A stretch of DNA of 64,000 nt from Escherichia coli (lineage in GTDB: Bacteria; Pseudomonadota; Gammaproteobacteria; Enterobacterales; Enterobacteriaceae), in NCBI RefSeq assembly GCF_016903815.1, contig NZ_CP069973.1. One strand, given 5' to 3'. Shown here in pieces: positions 3,220 to 28,350 of the stretch (position 1 is its first letter; each line of letters begins with the position of its first letter). The notes beneath the pieces are model-generated. The model was not told where the DNA came from, made no database searches, and was given only the letters and a program-made list of their open reading frames with translations. The position numbers and the translations under genes were made by a program.

Positions 3220-3578
3220 GCGTTCTCCAGTTCGGTGATTTTTATTCCAAGCCGTCCGCCTGGTACTTTCACACCACGAATTACGCGAATGTCATCGAAT
3301 TGCTCGTCGTCTTCCGCAAATCCGGCGTGGATAAGGGAGTCGAGTAAACCTTTCAGGATGTTATCGAGGTCGCGGCGGCGGGAGTCTGGAACGTCTGCGA
3401 TGACTTTGATGCGGAGTCGTGATTTGGTGAAAATGTCTAACTTGAGTTGGCGGATGATTTGCTGAACGTCTTTTCGGTATTTCTGGCCTTTATCGCTGAT
3501 GTAGTATTGGCTTCCCCGTCTTCGCCAGTAGGTGTTCAGCGACGGTGGGTATGGAAGCACAAACTGATATTCGTTCAT
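3216..3578 (-). CDS. rusA: Holliday-junction resolvase RusA
   Basis: 120 aa with the RRRDLDN motif and overall resemblance to recalled RusA. Confidence 0.8.
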   Translation of the reverse strand: MNEYQFVLPYPPSLNTYWRRRGSQYYISDKGQKYRKDVQQIIRQLKLDIFTKSRLRIKVIADVPDSRRRDLDNILKGLLDSLIHAGFAEDDEQFDDIRVIRGVKVPGGRLGIKITELENA

Positions 3579-6233: not shown

Positions 6234-7684
6234 CAGAATCCTCCTTTCTTCTTGGACTGCGGTTCCTCGCGTTCACGGCGGCGCATTTCAGCAGACTGTT
6301 GGTCTGTGTCATAAATAGCGCCATTTGCCTGAATGCAATACACCGTGCCGGTATTGCCATGACGATTGAGGCGAAGGATTAGTTCGGTTTCACCAGGAGG
6401 AAAGCTGTCATCAAAAGCACCTTCACGATGGATCCCAACCCAATAATCGCAATCCTGTTCAATCTGCCCTGTATCTCGTGAGTCACTTGGTAATGGGCGT
6501 TTATTGGTTCGGCTTTCCAGTGCGCGGTTAAGCTGTGTCAGAAGCACAACAACGCAATCAAGCTCTTTGGCAAGGTTCTTCAGTCCTTTGGTGATCATGC
6601 CGTAAGCAAGGTCGTTGCGATCGGCCTTTTCAGCGGTCATTAGTGTCAGGTAATCGACCAGAATCATGCCAACACATCCTTTTTCTCGCTTGATTCGACG
6701 GCTTTCGCTGACGATTTGAGCCAGAGATAATCCCGGCGTGTCGTCGATGTAAAGCAGGTCGATTTCACTCAAGCGATTGGCTGTTTCGATCGCCCTGTTG
6801 AAGTCACCATCGTAATCACCCTGATAGCCGTCATCAGCGTCATTTGTCGCCGGAAGGTAAAAAATATTGGGGTTAACACCTGACTTTTGCCCTACCAGTT
6901 TTTCCAGTATCTGGTCACCTGGCATTTCAAGGCTGAACATCAGAGCGGGCTTTTTCTCATGCACTGCGCAGTTGATTGCCATCTGGCTGTATAGCGTCGT
7001 TTTCCCCATCTTAGGGCGAGCGCCAATGACAAACAAAGAGCCTTTCACCAGACCTTTCGGTGACAGCATCCTGTCCAGCGATGGGATCCCTGTGCTCATT
7101 CCTCGTTGTTCGCCTGACGGGTCAAAACGCTTCTCAAGGTCGCTAACCCAGTCTTCCATGACCTCACCAAATGAGCGAAGTCCGCGACGCGATCCGGTTT
7201 TTGCATGGTCTGTCAGTTGCGTGAAAATCGCCTGAATAGCTTCGTACTTCTGCGTTGCAGTCATTCCGTTGCGGGAATAGAGCAATTCCGTCGCTTCAGT
7301 CATGCGGTTGATGGCGTAGCGTTCCATTGCGGTTTCGCGAACCTGCATTGCATAGGCAACGATGTTTGCTGCGCTTGGCGTGTTCTTTGCGATCTCAGCG
7401 ATATAAGCAAAACCGCCAACAGACGCCGTTAACGATTTACGCTCCAGTTCATCGAAAAGCGTCAGGCCATCTACTGGCTTTTGCTCCCGGTGCATTCTGG
7501 TTATCTCTTCGAAAAGGATTTTGTGTGGTCGGCTGTAAAATGAATCAGGCTTCAGCATCGCCAGAACTTTCTGGACGCGCTCACTGCTGTCATCATCCAG
7601 AAGCAATCCACCAATCACCGCCTGCTCTGCCTCGATGCTATGGGGCGGCGCATAAAAATTATCGGTCATCGTGTTCACCCTCAC
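6233..7684 (-). CDS. Replicative DNA helicase, DnaB family (phage-encoded)
   Basis: 483 aa; DnaB-like N-terminus (HSIEAEQAVIGGLLLD) and Walker A GARPKMGKTTL. Confidence 0.85.
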   Translation of the reverse strand: MRVNTMTDNFYAPPHSIEAEQAVIGGLLLDDDSSERVQKVLAMLKPDSFYSRPHKILFEEITRMHREQKPVDGLTLFDELERKSLTASVGGFAYIAEIAKNTPSAANIVAYAMQVRETAMERYAINRMTEATELLYSRNGMTATQKYEAIQAIFTQLTDHAKTGSRRGLRSFGEVMEDWVSDLEKRFDPSGEQRGMSTGIPSLDRMLSPKGLVKGSLFVIGARPKMGKTTLYSQMAINCAVHEKKPALMFSLEMPGDQILEKLVGQKSGVNPNIFYLPATNDADDGYQGDYDGDFNRAIETANRLSEIDLLYIDDTPGLSLAQIVSESRRIKREKGCVGMILVDYLTLMTAEKADRNDLAYGMITKGLKNLAKELDCVVVLLTQLNRALESRTNKRPLPSDSRDTGQIEQDCDYWVGIHREGAFDDSFPPGETELILRLNRHGNTGTVYCIQANGAIYDTDQQSAEMRRREREEPQSKKKGGF

Positions 7685-8729: not shown

Positions 8730-9023
8730 TCAGAACTCCATCTGGATTTGTTCAGAACGCTCGGTTGCCGCCGGGCGTTTTTTATTGGTGAGAATCGAAG
8801 CAACTTGTCGTGCCAATCGAGCCATATCGTCGTCAACGACGCCCCATTCAAGAACAGCAAGCAGCATTGAGAACTTTGGAATCCAGTCCCTCTTCCACCT
8901 GCTGATCTGCGACTTATCAACTCCTACAGCTTCCGCTGTCTTCTCAGTTCCAAGCATTGCGATTTTGTTAAGCAACGCACTCTCGATTCGTAGAGCCTCG
9001 TTGCGTTTGTTTGCACGAACCAT
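8730..9023 (-). CDS. cII: Transcriptional activator CII
   Basis: From the internal Met, [51 protein letters not shown]... matches recalled lambda CII. Confidence 0.85.
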
Positions 9024-17697: not shown

Positions 17698-17753
17698 GGC
17701 GGTTTTTTATTGCCTGATTTGCAGGTTCGATTCCCTATTCGGAGATAGCACTC

Positions 17754-17954
17754 ATGCAACACGAACTACAGCCTGATTCACTGGTTGATTTGAAATTCAT
17801 CATGGCCGATACTGGCTTTGGTAAAACCTTCATCTATGACCGGATTAAGTCCGGCGACCTTCCTAAAGCCAAAGTTATCCACGGACGAGCAAGATGGTTA
17901 TATCGTGACCATTGTGAATTTAAAAATAAGCTCTTAAGCCGCGCCAATGGGTAA
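17754..17954 (+). CDS. torI: Excisionase / recombination directionality factor, TorI type
   Basis: 66-aa excisionase-family HTH protein immediately inside attR; I recall it as matching K-12 TorI. Confidence 0.7.
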   Translation: MQHELQPDSLVDLKFIMADTGFGKTFIYDRIKSGDLPKAKVIHGRARWLYRDHCEFKNKLLSRANG

Positions 17955-18027
17955 AATAGCGGGTAAAATATTTCTCACATCTAAAAAACACCATTCCAAT
18001 CAATCCCCTGCCGCTTCAAGTAGATGT

Positions 18028-18042
18028 CTGCAGGGGACACCA
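18028..18042 (+). repeat. attR-like direct repeat: 15 bp identical to the 3-prime end of tRNA-Arg (argW), CTGCAGGGGACACCA
   Basis: Exact 15-mer also present at 28336-28350; lies between torI and the next integrase. Confidence 0.7.
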
Positions 18043-18206: not shown

Positions 18207-19493
18207 ATGTCCAGAAATACCCTCAACAAATTAACAGACCGTCAGTGCAAAGCAGCTAAGCCACGAGACAAAACTTATAAATTGTCTGATGGTGGTGGTC
18301 TTTATCTTGAAGTATCCCAGACCGGGTCGAAGTATTGGCGAATGAAGTATCGCCGCCCATCAGATAAGAAAGAAGACAGACTTGCTTTTGGTGTATATCC
18401 AACCATTAGCTTACAAGACGCCAGAGAAAAACGAGACAACGCCAAAAAGTTGTTAGTCAAGGGGATAGATCCCAAAGCAGAGCAAAGAGCAGCAAAAGCA
18501 GAAGAAAAAGGCGCATTCACTTTTGAGACAATAGGACGTCAATGGGTTGAAAGCCACCAGATGTGGAACGAAGACCACCGAAAACGCGTACTTAGAAGCC
18601 TTGAAATGTATATTTTCCCTCACATTGGCACTTCGGATATTCGCAAACTGGAGGCGATGACAATTTTACCTTTGTTTAAGAAGGTAGATGACGCCGGGAA
18701 ACACGATACAGCCAACCGACTTAAACAACGAGTTAAGGACATCATACATAGCGCCCGTCTGAGCGGCATTAAGACAGAAATCATCACGAATGATCTCGAT
18801 GTCCGGTTAATGCAATATGAAACTAAGCATCATGCCGCACTACATCCCAGAGATTTACCAGACTTTTTCACTCGATTGGGCAGCTTTAAAGGTAATCCTC
18901 TTACCCGCCTTGCCATTGAGCTAACCATGTTGACATTTGTTCGTTCAAGCGAGTTAAGGTTTGCCCGTTGGAAAGAGTTTGACCTTGATCGGGCTGAGTG
19001 GATTATCCCTAAAAAAAGAGAGCCTATCGATGGTGTGAGGTTTTCCACCCGTGGCACAAAAACGGGAAAAGACGAACATATCGTGCTTCTTAGCCGTCAG
19101 GCTGTTTCTATTGTAAAGCAGTTGAGAGAACTAAGCGGAAGCTACGATGTTGTGTTTCCGAATGAAAGAAACACCAAAGGCGTGATGAGTGAAAACACGG
19201 TAAACAAGGCATTACGCTTAATGGGCTATAACACGCAAGAGGACGTAACTGGACATGGATTCCGTGCCACAGCCTGTAGTTCCCTGATGGAGTCCGGTTT
19301 GTGGCAGGAGGACGCAGTAGAGCGCCAGATGAGCCACAAAGAATATAAAGACGTTAAAAGAGCCTACAAGCACAAGGCTGATTACTTAGAAGAGCGCAAA
19401 CTAATGCTTCAATGGTGGGCAGATTATCTGGACGCCAATCGAGAAATACATATAAGCCCTTACGAGTTCGGAAGGAGAACACGCCGTGACTAA
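18207..19493 (+). CDS. Tyrosine integrase, P4 family
   Basis: 428 aa; P4-type N-terminus (KLTDRQCKAAKPRDKTYKLSDGGGLYLEV) and C-terminal LMLQWWADYLD motif. Confidence 0.9.
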   Translation: MSRNTLNKLTDRQCKAAKPRDKTYKLSDGGGLYLEVSQTGSKYWRMKYRRPSDKKEDRLAFGVYPTISLQDAREKRDNAKKLLVKGIDPKAEQRAAKAEEKGAFTFETIGRQWVESHQMWNEDHRKRVLRSLEMYIFPHIGTSDIRKLEAMTILPLFKKVDDAGKHDTANRLKQRVKDIIHSARLSGIKTEIITNDLDVRLMQYETKHHAALHPRDLPDFFTRLGSFKGNPLTRLAIELTMLTFVRSSELRFARWKEFDLDRAEWIIPKKREPIDGVRFSTRGTKTGKDEHIVLLSRQAVSIVKQLRELSGSYDVVFPNERNTKGVMSENTVNKALRLMGYNTQEDVTGHGFRATACSSLMESGLWQEDAVERQMSHKEYKDVKRAYKHKADYLEERKLMLQWWADYLDANREIHISPYEFGRRTRRD

Positions 19494-20241
19494 GATGACA
19501 GGACTAGATGCGTTTTATAACGAGTCAGAAGATAAAATCTGGTTTGGTAATCTGATCAGCGAACTGGCAAGACTAAACAATGAAAATGAAAGAATGATCG
19601 CTGCCGCTATCTTAAGTAACTACAGATTGAGCAAAGCTAAACCAGATACTTTAGGGGGGCTGGGCTTTTATCAGTTCGATTGGGTATCAGGTTTTACAAC
19701 TAATGACGACTTTGAAAAGCAGTGTGTGGAGTTTTTAGGTCTTCTGGCTATGGGGCATGAATACAGGGAGAGCCCGATACCGGGGGAAGAAGGGACTTTC
19801 AACGTTAGGAAAGGGGAAGACTTTTTATATCACGATGATGAGGATGATTGGTATGGGTCTTACGATTCGTTTTATTTCAAGCGCTCCGAGGTTGTGAACT
19901 TCTTCCCAGAACTGGATATGAATGTTCCAGATAACGAACCAGAAATTGGAGCACTGTCAAAAAAAGTAGAAAGAGAACAAAACTGGAGAGGAAAAGATAC
20001 GGCTTTAAAGATGATCGCCGGAATGGCGATTGCCTTATTTGAATCAAGCAAAGATTTCCATAGTGGAGGAAACCTTAGTATCAATAGGGTTAGTGCCCAA
20101 GTAATAGAAAACAACATAATATTCGGGAACGATGAAGACAGCGATACCCACCCAGATACATTTCGGAGATTGCTAACGAACGCTTTGGATAAGTACGCCC
20201 CCAAATTTAAGAAAAAAGCAACCAAAAAGCGTCCAAAATAA
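19486..20241 (+). CDS. Hypothetical acidic protein coupled to the integrase
   Basis: 251-aa ORF; start overlaps the int stop by 8 bp. Confidence 0.45.
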   Translation: MTKMTGLDAFYNESEDKIWFGNLISELARLNNENERMIAAAILSNYRLSKAKPDTLGGLGFYQFDWVSGFTTNDDFEKQCVEFLGLLAMGHEYRESPIPGEEGTFNVRKGEDFLYHDDEDDWYGSYDSFYFKRSEVVNFFPELDMNVPDNEPEIGALSKKVEREQNWRGKDTALKMIAGMAIALFESSKDFHSGGNLSINRVSAQVIENNIIFGNDEDSDTHPDTFRRLLTNALDKYAPKFKKKATKKRPK

Positions 20242-20397
20242 AGGAAGGATGTTCCCAAATTGTGCGTTAGAACTAAAAAATAACGCCCAATTTGGGGTAA
20301 TTCTATTCCCAAAAATTTTTTCTCCAAATTCACAGAAAACTTAAAAAAACAATGATTTACTATCTCACATAGTCAAGCAACGTATTACGAGGTAGAT

Positions 20398-20589
20398 ATG
20401 AAAAAGTCGCTGATTCGGCTATCTGAGGTTTTGAAACGCACTGGCTATAGCAAGGCGTGGGTATATGCTCTGATGAGCCGAGGACAATTCCCCCAATCAG
20501 TCAAGATTGGTGCTCGCGCAATAGCTTTTATTGAAAGCGAGATCGATGACTGGATCGATCAACGTATAGCCGAATCGCGTAGTAACTAA
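20398..20589 (+). CDS. alpA: AlpA-family transcriptional regulator / excisionase
   Basis: 63 aa; RLSEVLKRTGYSKAWVYALMSRGQFPQSVKIGARAIAFIESEIDDWI is the classic AlpA HTH. Confidence 0.8.
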   Translation: MKKSLIRLSEVLKRTGYSKAWVYALMSRGQFPQSVKIGARAIAFIESEIDDWIDQRIAESRSN

Positions 20590-20829: not shown

Positions 20830-20910
20830 TCGCACAAAAATTGTAGAGTAATTTGGGGAGACAGGAAGTCTCCTCCATATTACATTTTGGTACAACAGTA
20901 AGGGAATAAA

Positions 20911-21556: not shown

Positions 21557-22609
21557 ATGGAATTATACGATAAAGACGCGAGTCTATCCACAAAATCACA
21601 AGCCGTAATCAATCACATCAATGGTCGCACATTAGCTTATGTGAGATCAGTTACGCACAAACGTAATGAATTAAAGGCGGAGAATAAACGCCAATCATCA
21701 AAGGCTAACCACTGCATACCACCAGCTTGGACAAAGAAGAAATGGCGTACAATGAGGCGAGCTTTGTTTACTCTGGATGTCGAATCAACTAGTGGTATCC
21801 CCTACTCCTTTACCTTCAGACCCGTTAAGGGAACAACGCCAGAGAAATTCAACAAAGCGTTAAAGGCACTTACCAGATGGTTGACTTCGAAAGGCAATCA
21901 GTGGGTTTACGTCATGGAGTGGGCTCAACACCAGTCAGAGCCGCATGTACACGCAATAATTATGGTGAACGAAAGAAGCATTAATGGGCAAGCAGGCAAA
22001 ATTGTCAGCAAATGGGTAACACTGGCAAACAATGCAATCCCATCAAATGTTCCTCCCCAGTGGGATCTAGATTTGAAAGGTCAGCAATATTCAGAGCCTA
22101 CAAGGTGTATAGGTAAACAGATTGATTACATGGCAAAACCCGAAACTAAGTTAAATGACTTTAATAGAGAGGCGAGCAAGAGCCTATATGATTGGTCAGA
22201 TGCCAACGTTTGGGGTTATTCGAATGGCTGGGCGCGGCATGAGATAAAAAAAGAAACACTTTCTATCACTGGCTTTCATGCTGTAAGACGCATACTAAAA
22301 GCCATTCAGGCATCAAGGAAAGACAACTACAAAGTTAAGCGACAGATACAGCGTACATTGAAACGACAAGACATAAATCGCTCACCAATCACCCCGTTCC
22401 AAGCACCGTTAATTAGCAAACACGATTGGGATTTATCAGTGATAGCGGTCACCAAAGAGGCAGAGACAGAGCGCAGGGAGTTACTATCCTCACAGACAAT
22501 AAACTCGAACAAAGTACAAACCCACCCGCTGTTAAGGATGTTAAGAAAAGCACGAGTGAGAGCATCCAGAGCCAGAAGAGAAAGCGGAGGTTATGACCAT
22601 TACTACTAG
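21557..22609 (+). CDS. Putative rolling-circle replication initiator (HUH endonuclease)
   Basis: 350 aa with an HUH-like motif (EPHVHAIIMV) and tyrosine-rich region; family assignment is from motif only. Confidence 0.45.
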   Translation: MELYDKDASLSTKSQAVINHINGRTLAYVRSVTHKRNELKAENKRQSSKANHCIPPAWTKKKWRTMRRALFTLDVESTSGIPYSFTFRPVKGTTPEKFNKALKALTRWLTSKGNQWVYVMEWAQHQSEPHVHAIIMVNERSINGQAGKIVSKWVTLANNAIPSNVPPQWDLDLKGQQYSEPTRCIGKQIDYMAKPETKLNDFNREASKSLYDWSDANVWGYSNGWARHEIKKETLSITGFHAVRRILKAIQASRKDNYKVKRQIQRTLKRQDINRSPITPFQAPLISKHDWDLSVIAVTKEAETERRELLSSQTINSNKVQTHPLLRMLRKARVRASRARRESGGYDHYY

Positions 22610-23407: not shown

Positions 23408-24400
23408 TCAACGTTCGTAATAGTAATCCGACACCTCAGTAAAATCTATTTCCTCCCTAGAAAGTAATGATTCCATCTCATCTAGTTTATCGATTTGAGG
23501 CAAAACACTTGTTGGTGAAATCACAACATTAAAGTCCTCATTATATCGGTGACCTACCCTTGTGAGCTCTTTACCTAATTGCAACAATATATAATCACGT
23601 AAAATAAGTTGATTCCGTCTAAATCGAATAAGACGATAGTAATGGAAGAAATCAGAACATTTTGATGAATCATAATTTCTACCATTCCACCCGGTTTTCC
23701 TCGTAGCTCGGAATAATGCTTGCTCTTGCGTATTTTTCCAAATGCTAAAATCAAAGTGACTTTTCGGGTTAGGATTTTCGTATGTTGCTTGAGGATAAAA
23801 ATTAGTAACACCAAATTGATGCTTGTCAATGATCTTTAAAGTCCGATTTTGTTCAGACAACATCCGCCTTAAGGACCTAGGAATTTCGAAACGCATTAGT
23901 TTGTTTTTATCCAAGATTCTTAATTCTCTTGGAAGCATCTCATGATCCCGTTCTAAATATCTTTCACACCGTTTCGGCACATACTGAAAATACACTGAAA
24001 AAAAACAAAATATATTATCAGAAACGAGAGGAGTAATATGTATTTTTTCTTGCTCAGGAACGTTTTGAACAAAATAGTATGCCGTTCCTTGCCAAATCAA
24101 CGATTGCGCTACTGCCTCCACCAATTCACGTATTGTTTCATCTACCGAGTATTTCCTATATCTAGCTTGTAAATTTCCAAACATTTTACGTATGAGTTCT
24201 TCGTCGTTAGTTTCGACTTGAAACAAATTGGTATCACCGTGATTTACAAAATTAAAAACTCTAGCAAAATCCTCATAAAACATCCTTTGATAGAAACCTG
24301 GTCGTTCATTCTTAGACTTGGTCAATAGTCTATCAACAAAACTTAATTGCTCAGGATCGACGCTATAACCGTAAAGGGGTATATTCTTGATAATTTTCAT
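23408..24400 (-). CDS. Unclassified 330-aa soluble protein, downstream gene of the cargo operon
   Basis: Long ORF with AAGGA Shine-Dalgarno; start ATG overlaps the upstream stop as ATGA; no TM segment and no catalytic motif recognised. Confidence 0.6.
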   Translation of the reverse strand: MKIIKNIPLYGYSVDPEQLSFVDRLLTKSKNERPGFYQRMFYEDFARVFNFVNHGDTNLFQVETNDEELIRKMFGNLQARYRKYSVDETIRELVEAVAQSLIWQGTAYYFVQNVPEQEKIHITPLVSDNIFCFFSVYFQYVPKRCERYLERDHEMLPRELRILDKNKLMRFEIPRSLRRMLSEQNRTLKIIDKHQFGVTNFYPQATYENPNPKSHFDFSIWKNTQEQALFRATRKTGWNGRNYDSSKCSDFFHYYRLIRFRRNQLILRDYILLQLGKELTRVGHRYNEDFNVVISPTSVLPQIDKLDEMESLLSREEIDFTEVSDYYYER

Positions 24401-26874
24401 TCAAAATCCTTATCGTATTCCACGCCAAAACGACGAGCCAACTCACTAACATGGTAATCGATCTTGAAGTCAATTTGCTCGAGTTGCGGGAAAATTTCGA
24501 GAGCACAAAAGAGATGCGATGCATCTGAATGGGAGTTTAAGAACTCTCTGACAACTTTGTTCGTATGAGATTTCCCTCGATTCATTCCCATTTGATCGCT
24601 AAAGCCATCATGTCTTGCGCGGCGCTCAAATTCCATTTTCCAGTTAAGACGAATCATATCTCTCGGTGATGCGCACAAGCTGAAATTGCGCGGATTTGAA
24701 AGAATCATCATTCTCTTCAAATACTGCTGTTTGTTGGGAACAGACTCGAGCCAAGACTTAAACCTATCAAGTACTGTTTTAGATAGTTTTGCATTATCGA
24801 AATAAGCACTGTAAAGGATAGCAAAACCTAGAACTGACATCAGATCGTTGATCGCGGATGAAAGGAGATGCAGTCGAAACTCGTTGTTTATATCGAGTTT
24901 CGGATCTACAAATTTGGTATCTGATGCCAGCAATGAGAGAACCATGAACATAGGGAATACCTTGCTCAGTTTATTTTCATCATTCTGTTCAAGCGCATGT
25001 ATACATTCCTCAGCCAACTCAAAATATATCTGTCCAAAATGATCCGGTAGTTCATCATCTTGCTCTTGTTCAATGATATGTCCCACAATTTCCACCCTAC
25101 CAAGAATAGCTATAGCTTCATCCTGTGTAACGACAAACTGTTTGAGCATTTCAGCAATATTAATTTCTGGTAATGCGTATAGCTTTTCAGAGTAGTGCTC
25201 GTACTTTCTGTATCTCTCCAAGAGCAGAGAAAGTTCATTAAACCAATGGGGAAACTTCAAATGATTATGTAGGCTAGCGAGAACGACTTGCGTTGCGGCT
25301 TCCGGCATCTTCATGTTTATCAGTGAGTTAACGAAATCTGGAACCATGTTTACGTGAAAATCGCATACTTCTGGCAGAATTTTAGAATATTGTTGTAATA
25401 ACTTCTGAACCGCCAACTGCTGGACGTACTTTGGTTTGGATAATCTCTGTCCTTCAATCTCTTTTTCGAATTCGATACGTTCTACGATAAAGGCCAACTC
25501 AACCTGCAGAAAAGCAGGCAAAGTGTGTAGAGAGGTCTCTGTCCAGATATCATCTTTAAAGAACTGCTCCAATTCTTTCTCAAAAGTAATCATGCGGCGT
25601 AACATTTCAAGGCAAAGATTGCTGCCTAATGCAGCCCATGCATCCGCAATTCCAACTTTTATCACCTTTTCCTCAAAATAATTAACGACATCAGACGGTG
25701 TAAAGGCTTTTTCAATGATCGTCTTCATTTTCCGAAGTTCACGTATACCAATATCGAACTGAAACTGTTGTGCATAAGTTAATATACGAGATGAGAATAG
25801 ACTGATGAGATCCAACCCGAGCTTGAAATCACCGGCTTTGAATGCAAGTTCAATATGGCCTACCAACCTATTGATAATTTCATTCTCTAACCAAAGATAA
25901 TTTGGTTCTTCTTCAACCGTTAATTGGCTCCTTGTTTTTAAAGCAATGGATGTTACACTGTCGCCAGCTAAGAACCATTGCTTATGTTTTATTCGTCTAG
26001 GGAACCAGTAACTTTGATAATCAATTCTGTGTTTCTGATTAAGGTAATGAAGAAGTAATGCCGAATAAACATTACTGAGAGCAGGTAAATTATCTCCGAG
26101 TCCTACTTTTTCACATATCAGGCGATCATCAATGTAGTTTAACTGCTCAAAGGCCAAATGTGCGGCTTTAGAGTGATGATTAGCTAAAGATACTGAATTC
26201 TTGGGATTAGACGCACCTTCGATGTGTCGTGCAATTCGTGGGAGTATTTCACTTCGGGCTAACTGATTTAGGTCAAAAAAATTGAATAATCTTTGACCTA
26301 ATGGGAACAGAGCTAAGGAACTAACAAGTGTCAGCAATGTTCCCATTGCATAAACGAAAAGACCGGGTTCAACCCCGAACAAGTGGAGAGCAGTTGCACT
26401 AAGACAAAACACCGCAGAAAGCACTAAAGTCCGCGAATACACATTACCTACCTGCTCGGTAGTAAGCATTTGTATAATATCTCGCCGAAGTCTGGTATAT
26501 CCTGTACTTAGAATGATACCTATTGTAGCAAAGTATATTGAAAATATAGCGGTAAGTATCTGTGCGTACAACCTAAGTTGATCAATATTAAATTTTTTTT
26601 CATCATAGCTAAGAGGATGAAGCAAAATCGTATTATTCCGAATATAATCTTCAACAAAACCCAGTGCAAATAACGTTAATATGACCCATAACAAATTTTT
26701 TAAACCTACCAACGCAAAAGACATAAAAACATGAGCGTTAGACTTAGCTTTAAAAACAGACGTACGATGTATGTATGACGCACGTTCTAAAATAAATCTA
26801 ACCCTCACAAGATCTGTTCTTAATTTCCAGAACCACTTTTGAGAAATAAGCCAAACCTTCATTATATCAATCAA
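24397..26874 (-). CDS. Unclassified 825-aa membrane-anchored protein (about four N-terminal TM helices plus a roughly 630-aa helical cytoplasmic region)
   Basis: Uninterrupted 2.5-kb ORF in AT-rich DNA; hydrophobic segments near residues 50-74, 102-124, 148-168 and 172-192; no Walker or nuclease motif seen. The track start is TTG; the first ATG is at 26862. Confidence 0.6.
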   Translation of the reverse strand: MIDIMKVWLISQKWFWKLRTDLVRVRFILERASYIHRTSVFKAKSNAHVFMSFALVGLKNLLWVILTLFALGFVEDYIRNNTILLHPLSYDEKKFNIDQLRLYAQILTAIFSIYFATIGIILSTGYTRLRRDIIQMLTTEQVGNVYSRTLVLSAVFCLSATALHLFGVEPGLFVYAMGTLLTLVSSLALFPLGQRLFNFFDLNQLARSEILPRIARHIEGASNPKNSVSLANHHSKAAHLAFEQLNYIDDRLICEKVGLGDNLPALSNVYSALLLHYLNQKHRIDYQSYWFPRRIKHKQWFLAGDSVTSIALKTRSQLTVEEEPNYLWLENEIINRLVGHIELAFKAGDFKLGLDLISLFSSRILTYAQQFQFDIGIRELRKMKTIIEKAFTPSDVVNYFEEKVIKVGIADAWAALGSNLCLEMLRRMITFEKELEQFFKDDIWTETSLHTLPAFLQVELAFIVERIEFEKEIEGQRLSKPKYVQQLAVQKLLQQYSKILPEVCDFHVNMVPDFVNSLINMKMPEAATQVVLASLHNHLKFPHWFNELSLLLERYRKYEHYSEKLYALPEINIAEMLKQFVVTQDEAIAILGRVEIVGHIIEQEQDDELPDHFGQIYFELAEECIHALEQNDENKLSKVFPMFMVLSLLASDTKFVDPKLDINNEFRLHLLSSAINDLMSVLGFAILYSAYFDNAKLSKTVLDRFKSWLESVPNKQQYLKRMMILSNPRNFSLCASPRDMIRLNWKMEFERRARHDGFSDQMGMNRGKSHTNKVVREFLNSHSDASHLFCALEIFPQLEQIDFKIDYHVSELARRFGVEYDKDFE

Positions 26875-27431: not shown

Positions 27432-27564
27432 CATTGTCTCAATTGGGTATACCGTAATGACAAGGTGATACAAAGTCTCAATAGGGTTGTATAGGAACAT
27501 TTTGACTACACAAAATGCATTATGTATCATTTGCACTTATATTCACAACCCTATTGAGACAATG
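27432..27564. promoter_or_regulatory. res-like repeat cluster directly upstream of the serine recombinase gene
   Basis: 16-bp inverted repeat GTCTCAATAGGGTTGT (27475-27490) / ACAACCCTATTGAGAC (27545-27560) plus a partial direct copy CATTGTCTCAAT at 27432-27443. Confidence 0.45.
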
Positions 27565-27566
27565 CA

Positions 27567-28193
27567 ATGAACGTTAGAATTTACTGCCGAGCATCAACTG
27601 AGGGGCAACACGCTGATCGAGCACTTACCAGCCTACGTGAATTTTCAAAATCAAAAGGCTGGCAGATTGCAGGAGAGTATATAGAAAATGCTAGCGGGGC
27701 GAAGCTTGAGCGCGTAGAGCTTATGCGGCTATTGTCTGAAGCCCAGTCCGGCGATCTGTTGCTAGTGGAAGCTATAGATCGTCTGAGTCGCCTAGAACAT
27801 AGCGCATGGGTCGAACTGAAAGATACGCTCAACCGAAAAGGGTTAATCATCGTATCAATGGATTTACCAACGAGCTGGCAGATGGTCGAGATGGCAGGCA
27901 ATGACCTAACCAGCGGCATCCTGAGAGCCGTAAATGCCATGTTGATTGATATCCTTGCCACAATGGCACGGCAGGATTACGAAACACGTCGTAAACGCCA
28001 ACAGCAAGGCATTGAGCGAGCTAAAAGCGAAGGAATATACATTGGCAGGGAGAAAAATCAGGAAGCCCGAGAGATCGTTAGAGAGATGTTGGAGCAAGGA
28101 GTAAAACCTGAACTCATCATGAAGGCAGCAGGAATCAGCCGAGCGACTTACTACCGTATAAAAAGTGAGCTGTCAGTCGTAAAATCAGAATAA
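27567..28193 (+). CDS. Serine recombinase (resolvase/invertase family)
   Basis: 208 aa; N-terminal VRIYCRASTEGQ catalytic-serine motif and C-terminal HTH. Confidence 0.85.
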   Translation: MNVRIYCRASTEGQHADRALTSLREFSKSKGWQIAGEYIENASGAKLERVELMRLLSEAQSGDLLLVEAIDRLSRLEHSAWVELKDTLNRKGLIIVSMDLPTSWQMVEMAGNDLTSGILRAVNAMLIDILATMARQDYETRRKRQQQGIERAKSEGIYIGREKNQEAREIVREMLEQGVKPELIMKAAGISRATYYRIKSELSVVKSE

Positions 28194-28327: not shown

Positions 28328-28350
28328 TTCGATTCCTGCAGGGGACACCA
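28328..28350 (+). repeat. attR direct repeat: 23 bp identical to the argW 3-prime end, TTCGATTCCTGCAGGGGACACCA
   Basis: Matches the recalled 3-prime end of E. coli tRNA-Arg (argW); shares a 15-mer with 18028-18042. Confidence 0.8.

What the first reader, a model, noticed from the sequence alone, without database searches (positions are those of the whole stretch)
19486..20241. Acidic 251-aa ORF translationally coupled to the island integrase
Its start overlaps the integrase stop by 8 bp, implying co-expression. It has no recognisable motif and is strongly acidic in its C-terminal half; it could be a directionality or accessory factor, or a second cargo gene.
Basis: seen in the sequence. Interest (0 to 1): 0.3.

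Follow-up and report, generated by a model that had tools for sequence, protein, structure and literature searches.

The report
Candidate regulator between integrase and alpA
The 251-residue gene fused to the end of the island's integrase gene is real. It belongs to an undescribed two-domain family that always sits between the integrase and the alpA switch gene of small Enterobacterales islands, and it most likely binds repeats in front of alpA to control when the island wakes up.

Summary
The ORF, its coordinates and its 8-nt overlap with the integrase stop are confirmed. No Pfam, NCBIfam, PHROG, PADLOC or PDB match exists. The "acidic C-terminal half" is wrong: the acidic patch lies at residues 100-150 and the last 90 residues are basic.

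The gene lies in a 10.3-kb island at argW with a swappable cargo slot. AlphaFold2 predicts an N-domain with no fold match, a disordered linker and an ~80-residue helical C-domain with weak winged-helix-like matches.

Relatives occur only in Enterobacterales islands. In all 17 non-identical loci where the downstream sequence is available, the gene lies directly upstream of alpA. An integrase lies upstream wherever the contig reaches that far.

At least six unrelated N-domains share the same C-domain. Every locus with that C-domain has 4-5 same-strand TTCCAA-type repeats before alpA (52 seen, 1.6 expected). The repeats follow the C-domain, not AlpA or Int.

In E. coli sister islands that are 95-100% identical, only the C-domain plus this intergenic region is replaced, like a phage immunity cassette.

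Best reading: a DNA-binding gatekeeper of the alpA promoter, probably a repressor with a swappable sensor domain. It is not an excisionase and not cargo. Binding and the direction of regulation are untested.

The parts
19486..20241 (+). Gene X: 251-aa protein, GTG start, stop TAA 20239-20241
   Evidence: purifying selection
19472..19477 (+). Shine-Dalgarno AAGGAG, 8 nt before the GTG, inside the 3' end of int
18207..19493 (+). P4-type tyrosine integrase (Arm-DNA-bind_3, Phage_int_M, Phage_integrase); its stop overlaps the X start by 8 nt
19486..19920 (+). X N-domain (aa 1-145): alpha/beta, pLDDT mostly >90, acidic loop aa 111-120; no fold or sequence match; 94-100% nt identity among E. coli sister islands
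19921..19989 (+). Predicted disordered linker (aa 146-168)
   Evidence: pLDDT <50 for aa 153-164
19990..20238 (+). [not shown]
19900..20370 (+). Variable cassette: the only stretch of the island backbone that falls to 40-60% nt identity between sister islands (C-terminal third of X plus the intergenic region up to ~30 nt before alpA)
20243..20309 (+). Stable hairpin just after the X stop (dG -28 kcal/mol, z -5). Its arms contain repeat copies 1 and 2. Analogous hairpins with other sequences occur in relatives.
20252..20261 (+). Repeat copy 1, TTCCCAAATT
20285..20297 (.). Palindromic copy GCCCAATTTGGGG (CCCCAAATT on the - strand)
20306..20316 (+). Repeat copy 3, TTCCCAAAAAT
20322..20334 (+). 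Proximal copy CTCCAAATT, running into the -35-like TTCACA (20329-20334), 69 nt before the alpA ATG
20329..20356 (+). Promoter-like site for alpA (TTCACA-16-AATGAT). The block 20347-20397 is conserved across cassette variants.
20398..20589 (+). alpA (Phage_AlpA, 63 aa); identical protein in the sister island compared (L005), and ~99-100% nucleotide identity across this stretch in all three sister islands whatever the X cassette
18023..18042 (+). Left att copy (3' end of tRNA-Arg argW), shared with the right end of the upstream prophage
28331..28350 (+). Right att copy; the island is ~10.3 kb

Best explanation
Gene X encodes the island's own sequence-specific regulator of the alpA promoter.

- It is made together with Int. 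In this lineage the two are translationally coupled.
- Its ~80-residue basic C-domain binds the short repeats between its stop codon and alpA. The proximal copy overlaps the -35 region.
- Its N-domain, joined by a flexible linker, is exchanged for unrelated domains in relatives. It is the input module, either a sensor of a helper-phage or host signal or an oligomerisation module.
- I lean towards repression: X keeps alpA, and so excision and replication, silent until the N-domain is engaged.
- The DNA-binding domain and its sites are swapped as one cassette between otherwise identical islands, which gives immunity-like specificity types.

Shown here: the gene is real; the two-domain architecture; strict synteny; the link between repeats and C-domain; the cassette replacement.
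Inferred: DNA binding, control of alpA, the direction of control and the sensor role.
For: 1. Synteny.
- X lies immediately upstream of alpA in all 17 non-identical loci where the downstream sequence is available: the window, L002, L005, L008, L009, L011, L013, L014, L015, L016 and seven further species representatives.
- An integrase lies upstream wherever the contig extends that far. Checked loci follow tRNA-Arg, -Leu, -Ser or -Thr genes.

2. Repeats.
- In the 12 loci with the canonical C-domain, TTC[CT]A[AC] occurs 52 times on the coding strand of the X-alpA spacers and once on the other strand. 1.6 were expected.
- Spacings cluster at 20-23, 30-31 and 42-44 nt. The proximal copy lies 69 nt before the alpA ATG in 9 of 12 loci, and the window's TTCACA has the same offset.

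3. The repeats follow the C-domain, not AlpA or Int.
- (a) The window and L005 encode an identical AlpA protein and near-identical Int, and the alpA and int stretches of all three sister islands are ~95-100% identical in DNA. Yet TTCCCAAAT is used in the window and L002 and ATTACCAAAC in L005 and L008, matching different C-domains.
- (b) Rahnella L026 has an AlpA only ~20% identical but a canonical C-domain and canonical repeats.
- (c) L016 has a similar AlpA (60-71% to the canonical loci) but a different X C-terminus, and instead carries four ATTACCCTnnACC-type repeats.
- (d) EcCIMP1 has a similar AlpA (67-77%) but no X and no such repeats.

4. N-domain independence. Six or more unrelated N-domains go with the same repeats.

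5. Cassette. Backbone identity is 95-100% except at 19900-20370, where it is 40-60%. This is the pattern of phage immunity regions.

7. Literature. alpA of Gram-negative PICIs is switched on by helper phage through an unknown route, and no repressor is known (PMC6092414; PMC11773190).
Against: - No experiment or direct test of DNA binding exists.
- The repeat pattern was defined from the same sequences used to count it, so the P-values are inflated.
- In the window's own variant the array is less regular. It has three direct copies plus one palindromic copy, with spacings of 54 and 15 nt, and two copies are simply the arms of a hairpin that may be a terminator.
- Adjacent sequences co-vary through linkage alone, so the cassette pattern in E. 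coli is not proof by itself.
- Direct repeats in phase that reach the -35 region are also typical of activators such as PhoB/OmpR or lambda CII, so repression is not established.
- The two E. coli PICIs studied experimentally (EcCICFT073, EcCIMP1) lack X, so X is not a general requirement.
Confidence: 0.4

Rival explanations
1. X binds the same repeats through its C-domain but acts as an activator. It recruits RNA polymerase to a weak alpA promoter once its N-domain receives a helper-phage or host signal.
For: - The copies are direct repeats on one face of the helix, and the proximal copy takes the place of the -35 element. This is the classic layout of PhoB/OmpR-type and lambda CII-type activators (established knowledge).
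- The canonical loci have a TGnTGAAAT-like extended -10 with a poorly spaced -35-like element.
- alpA in Gram-negative PICIs is known to be activated, not derepressed, in the one system tested (PMC6092414).
Against: - Swapping DNA-binding domain and sites as an immunity-like cassette is easier to explain for a repressor.
- X is expressed with int in the quiescent state.
- No data favour either direction of control.
Confidence: 0.25
2. X is an accessory or cargo protein, for example a phage-defence, anti-defence or interference factor. It happens to be carried next to int. The repeats belong to another factor or to the promoter and terminator.
For: - The domain-shuffled N-termini and the fast-evolving C-terminal part resemble conflict genes.
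- The acidic patch could mimic nucleic acid.
- PICI accessory genes are sometimes placed near int (PMC6092414).
Against: - The position is fixed in every relative where the downstream sequence is available, while true cargo varies at another site.
- There is no PADLOC hit.
- The repeats track the C-domain through four independent dissociations from AlpA and Int.
- The family is absent from 50,697 phage genomes.
Confidence: 0.12
3. X is a recombination accessory or directionality factor. It works physically with Int at the att sites.
For: - X is translationally coupled to int.
- The C-domain fold is loosely winged-helix-like, as in some excisionases.
Against: - X is 251 aa and acidic overall, with no Xis, AlpA or HTH_17 signature.
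- Its associated repeats lie 2.2 kb from the att core.
- The coupling to int is lost in distant relatives.
- AlpA is already present.
- Int is near-identical while the X cassette varies.
Confidence: 0.07
4. The repeats are iterons of an origin or partition-like site, and X is their binding protein for replication or maintenance of the excised element.
For: Phased direct repeats 20-22 nt apart look like iterons.
Against: The X-plus-repeats module is kept whatever the replication module: a rolling-circle Rep here, primase-DUF927 or D5-type helicases elsewhere. The fixed offset to the alpA start points to a promoter.
Confidence: 0.04

Closest known systems
Stl / Rpr master repressors of Gram-positive PICIs (SaPIs)
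   Same: A satellite-encoded regulator placed next to int. It controls the promoter of the excision and replication operon, and it combines a DNA-binding module with a highly variable partner or sensor module. As far as I know, it comes in different specificity types between related islands.
   Different: Stl has an N-terminal XRE-type HTH and is transcribed divergently. X has no HTH_3 match and is co-directional with int and alpA. Its conserved DNA-binding candidate is C-terminal, and its fold and sequence are unrelated. Derepression by a phage protein is untested.
Immunity regions of lambdoid phages (repressor DNA-binding domain plus operators exchanged as a unit)
   Same: Identity breaks sharply around a segment that holds a DNA-binding domain and the adjacent repeated sites, inside otherwise near-identical genomes.
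   Different: Only one protein domain plus a one-sided site array is exchanged. There is no cro-like partner and no divergent promoters, and the sites are direct repeats rather than palindromes.
Winged-helix regulators that bind phased direct repeats at the -35 region (PhoB/OmpR family; lambda CII binds TTGC-N6-TTGC)
   Same: Direct repeats sit on one helical face and reach the -35 region, and the C-terminal DNA-binding domain has a loosely winged-helix-like topology.
AlpA / Vis / TorI excisionase-regulators
   Same: They belong to the same integration and regulation module of P4-like and PICI-like islands and are small DNA binders that affect excision.
   Different: X is four times larger, acidic overall, and has no Phage_AlpA or HTH_17 signature. 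The island has its own AlpA directly downstream.
[quoted passage not shown]
   Same: Unrelated N-domains are extensively shuffled onto a constant domain within satellite regulatory regions.
   Different: X lies upstream of alpA in the 'integration zone', not in the Bro zone. It has no hit to Bro-N, KilA-N, ANT, AntA or P22_AR profiles.

Membership tests
Stl/Rpr-type PICI master repressor | XRE/HTH_3-type helix-turn-helix DNA-binding domain | tested here: not met
   No Pfam or NCBIfam HTH hit for X or for 10 relatives, even at E up to 1
Stl/Rpr-type PICI master repressor | Gene next to int, controlling the adjacent excision/replication operon through sites in the intervening spacer | tested here: inconclusive
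   Position and a repeat array in front of alpA are present. Control itself was not tested, and orientation is co-directional rather than divergent.
Stl/Rpr-type PICI master repressor | Released from DNA by a specific helper-phage protein | not testable with these tools
   Needs binding and induction experiments
Recombination directionality factor (Xis/AlpA/TorI/Vis) | Small (<~100 aa) basic protein with an excisionase, AlpA or HTH_17 fold signature | tested here: not met
   251 aa, pI 4.97, no such Pfam or TIGR hit
Recombination directionality factor (Xis/AlpA/TorI/Vis) | Binding sites within the att arms next to the core | tested here: not met
   The associated repeats lie at 20252-20334, 2.2 kb from the att copy at 18023-18042
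Anti-phage defence / island cargo | Match to a known defence protein family | tested here: not met
   No PADLOC hit
Anti-phage defence / island cargo | Located in the variable cargo slot and present or absent independently of the backbone | tested here: not met
   X is in the conserved backbone. Cargo swaps at 23.4-26.9 kb.
[not shown]
   [not shown]
Bro-N / KilA-N / ANT domain-shuffling network | At least one domain matching Bro-N, KilA-N, ANT, AntA, P22_AR or related profiles | tested here: not met
   No such Pfam or PHROG match in X or in the relatives scanned (10 against Pfam, 10 against PHROGs)

The most novel reading that the evidence does not exclude
X defines a new family of satellite master regulators. 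It is the missing link between helper phage and alpA induction in one class of Gram-negative PICI-like islands.
- A previously undescribed ~80-residue DNA-binding domain reads phased TTCCAA-type repeats at the alpA promoter.
- Interchangeable N-terminal domains each sense a different phage or host protein.
- The DNA-binding domain and its sites are swapped as a cassette, creating heteroimmune island types.
Probability: 0.3. Interest if true: 0.75.

Novelty: new variant of a known kind. Interest (0 to 1): 0.5.

Why it matters
- How Gram-negative phage-inducible islands sense their helper phage and switch on alpA is an open question. [quoted passage not shown]
- This gene offers a concrete, testable candidate for a subset of such islands. 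There is a protein, a predicted binding array, and natural specificity variants that can be swapped.
- These islands carry interchangeable anti-phage cargo, for example a PARIS-like pair in a sister island. Whatever controls their excision therefore affects how defence systems spread.
- The C-domain would also be a new DNA-binding domain family with no entry in Pfam, NCBIfam or PHROGs.

Tried and rejected
- Profile searches of X and of relatives against Pfam, PHROGs, NCBIfam and PADLOC found nothing.
- PDB sequence-profile searches gave only noise: Cake designer proteins at E 0.005 and the Fis N-terminus at E 0.2.
- The word-indexed homologue search with the C-domain profile added only a few short, unnamed proteins.
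- I suspected that EcCIMP1_002, the mis-annotated 'UvrB' between int and alpA in PMC11773190, was a C-domain-only homologue. This is rejected: the 427-nt gap of EcCIMP1 encodes nothing similar and has no TTCCAA repeats. EcCICFT073 also lacks X.
- The c1499 and c1500 deletions in the PICI literature turned out to be capsid and decoration genes, so they are irrelevant.
- tblastn of X and of a canonical relative against 50,697 phage genomes found no match.
- Rfam scan of the island found nothing.
- C-domain-only 'proteins' (90-110 aa) are probably truncated calls. The one locus inspected, L014, is a decayed copy with a fragmented integrase.
- The 879-aa seven-repeat protein P0025 looks like a spurious repeat-driven hit.
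- The repeats are not integrase arm sites or AlpA sites, because Int and AlpA stay constant while the repeats change.

Full report
**1. The observation**

ORF 19486..20241 (+) encodes 251 aa from a GTG start. The integrase ORF 18207..19493 ends with TAA at 19491-19493, so the two overlap by 8 nt. An AAGGAG lies at 19472-19477, 8 nt before the GTG. RefSeq annotates the same CDS as a hypothetical protein.

The acidity claim is wrong in its location. Overall pI is 4.97, but the negative charge sits in residues 100-160 (net -10). Residues 160-251 have pI 9.8 and end in KFKKKATKKRPK.

The ORF is a real gene. Between sister islands its first 143 codons have dN/dS of 0.07-0.16, like int. Relatives down to about 20-25% identity exist.

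No Pfam, PHROG, NCBIfam or PADLOC family matches, and PDB sequence matches are non-significant (best E 0.005).

**2. Context**

The window is E. coli chromosome. A lambdoid prophage ends with torI (17754-17954). A 10.3-kb island follows, bounded by copies of the 3' end of tRNA-Arg argW at 18023-18042 and 28331-28350. In prophage-free strains the intact argW gene lies just before int.

The island genes run in this order:
- int
- X
- alpA (20398-20589)
- a 63-aa ORF
- a 64-aa HTH protein
- a 128-aa ORF
- a rolling-circle Rep (21557-22609)
- a cargo pair on the minus strand (23408-26874)
- a resolvase (27567-28193)

Sister islands share this backbone but carry different cargo. One carries an AAA_15/21 + DUF4435 pair, which is PARIS-like by my recollection of that system.

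**3. A sharply bounded variable cassette**

Alignment of four islands shows 95-100% nucleotide identity from int through rep. The exception is window ~19900-20370, where identity falls to 40-60%.

That stretch is the C-terminal ~105 residues of X plus the spacer up to about 30 nt before alpA. The X N-terminal 145 residues are nearly invariant, while the C-terminal part is only about 25-40% identical between variants. The AlpA protein is identical in the window and L005, and the alpA stretch is ~99-100% identical in DNA in all three sister islands.

Of 5,426 complete E. coli genomes, 225 carry the gene. Of those, 164 have this cassette type and the rest have others.

**4. Architecture**

AlphaFold2 gave mean pLDDT 84. 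It predicts:
- an alpha/beta N-domain (residues 1-145)
- a disordered linker (146-168)
- a C-domain of a long helix, a short hairpin and three helices

The C-domain modelled alone gives pLDDT 85.

**5. The family**

An exhaustive HMM search of 1.84 billion cluster representatives found 31 proteins.

The C-domain has the motif W..F.GKDTALxxIAGLAIALEKSGGKYxRGGKLNKSAVA...VT.KAL..L. It ends proteins that carry at least six unrelated N-domains.

The N-domain of X recurs in P0012, P0018, P0019, P0020, P0024 and P0028. Two of these, P0019 and P0028, have a different C-terminus.

A scan of one genome per species found ten loci, all in Enterobacterales. The family is absent from 50,697 phage genomes.

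**6. Synteny**

In all 17 non-identical loci where the downstream sequence is available, X is followed directly by alpA. An integrase lies upstream wherever the contig extends that far. Checked loci sit next to tRNA-Arg, -Leu, -Ser or -Thr genes.

The replication modules differ: a rolling-circle Rep here, and primase-DUF927 or D5-type helicases elsewhere. X is therefore tied to the int-alpA module, not to replication.

**7. Repeats that follow the C-domain**

Every locus with the canonical C-domain has 4-5 copies of (A/T)CTTC(C/T)A(A/C)A between X and alpA, all on the coding strand.

Pooled over 12 loci, 52 copies were seen where 1.6 were expected, with one on the other strand. Spacings cluster at 20-23, 30-31 and 42-44 nt. 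The proximal copy (TTCCACA) lies 69 nt before the alpA ATG in 9 of 12 loci. The pattern was derived from these same sequences, so the P-values are optimistic, but the excess is very large.

Four dissociations show that the repeats go with the X C-domain rather than with AlpA or Int:
- (a) The window and L005 encode an identical AlpA protein and near-identical Int, and the alpA and int stretches of all sister islands are ~95-100% identical in DNA. Yet the window and L002 use TTCCCAAAT and L005 and L008 use ATTACCAAAC, matching different C-domains.
- (b) Rahnella L026 has an AlpA only ~20% identical but a canonical C-domain and canonical repeats.
- (c) L016 has a typical AlpA but an X with another C-terminus. 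It carries ATTACCCTnnACC-type repeats instead.
- (d) EcCIMP1 has a typical AlpA but no X and no such repeats.

The repeats are independent of the N-domain type.

**8. The window's own spacer**

Copies lie at 20252-20261, 20285-20297 (palindromic), 20306-20316 and 20322-20330. The last runs into a -35-like TTCACA at 20329, which is 69 nt before the alpA ATG. The scan found TTCACA-16-AATGAT there.

This array is less regular than the canonical ones. Copies 1 and 2 form the arms of a strong hairpin at 20243-20309 (dG -28 kcal/mol, z -5). That hairpin may be a terminator that insulates alpA from int-X transcription. Hairpins of different sequence occupy the same place in L011, L013 and L019.

**9. 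Interpretation**

The simplest account is that the C-domain is a sequence-specific DNA-binding domain for these repeats, and that X controls the alpA promoter.

[quoted passage not shown] Its transcription is induced by helper phage through an unknown route, and whether a repressor exists is stated to be unclear (PMC6092414; PMC11773190).

A regulator made together with Int in the quiescent state, carrying an exchangeable N-domain, fits a sensor-regulator. The replacement of DNA-binding domain plus sites as a unit, in the manner of an immunity region, makes me lean towards a repressor. However, phased direct repeats that reach the -35 region are equally typical of activators. I give 0.40 to the repressor-leaning version and 0.25 to the activator version.

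Classical directionality factor, cargo and iteron-binding readings are less likely for the reasons given under the rival explanations.

**10. Limits**

Nothing here shows binding or regulation directly. The structural similarity is weak. X is absent from the two E. coli PICIs that have been studied experimentally. No paper in the searched library describes this gene.

**11. Verdict**

The gene is best described as a new, uncharacterised variant of a satellite or island master regulator. It has a candidate new DNA-binding domain and a natural set of specificity cassettes. Interest is moderate (0.5): the question it addresses is open and directly testable, but all evidence is comparative.

Noticed in passing
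window 23408-26874 (- strand): Two overlapping genes (330 aa and 825 aa, GC 36-39%) fill the island's cargo slot. Sister islands carry there an AAA_15/21 + DUF4435 (PARIS-like) pair, a 152+232-aa pair or a 470-aa gene. There is no significant Pfam hit (best E 0.03, all below the gathering cut-offs) and no PADLOC hit, so this is a candidate unknown defence pair.
   Followed up: partly
window 27432-27564 and 27567-28193: The resolvase/invertase-family gene is preceded by a perfect 16-nt inverted repeat (27475-27490 / 27545-27560) and a second 17-nt one. This could be a res site or an invertible segment.
   Followed up: no
window 17700-18042 and 28331-28350: The prophage ending in torI and the island are integrated in tandem at argW and share the att copy at 18023-18042. 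A further partial argW-like stretch lies at about 17718-17745. Whether the prophage is the island's helper is unknown.
   Followed up: partly
window 20243-20309; L011 ~8817-8857; L013 ~784-840; L019 ~3280-3307: A hairpin directly after the X stop is kept in structure but not in sequence across loci. In several loci one repeat copy lies in its loop or arms. No U-tract follows, so it is not a canonical intrinsic terminator.
   Followed up: partly
L030 (E. coli CFT073, EcCICFT073) ~7185-7250: The int-alpA gap of this model PICI, which lacks X, holds about six AACAAC-type repeats at a 10-nt period. This may be the binding array of a different factor.
   Followed up: no
window 20850-20859 (- strand): An extra TCCCCAAATT copy lies between the 63-aa ORF and the 64-aa HTH gene of the island.
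   Followed up: no
window 21557-22609: The rolling-circle Rep ORF is 350 aa from the first ATG, but RefSeq annotates a shorter 285-aa product. It matches PF23343 (REP_ORF2-G2P, inovirus gpII-like). Pseudomonas tmRNA islands with int, alpA, a Gp2-like Rep and defence cargo are reported to be transduced by a jumbo phage (PMC12595487).
   Followed up: partly
relatives of X (e.g. P0031, P0034, P0037; L025 2560-3243): A short motif (Y/F)GF(K/N)RxE(V/I)xxhh(P)EL precedes the linker in several otherwise unrelated N-domains. In some proteins it sits at the very N-terminus. Its role is unknown.
   Followed up: no
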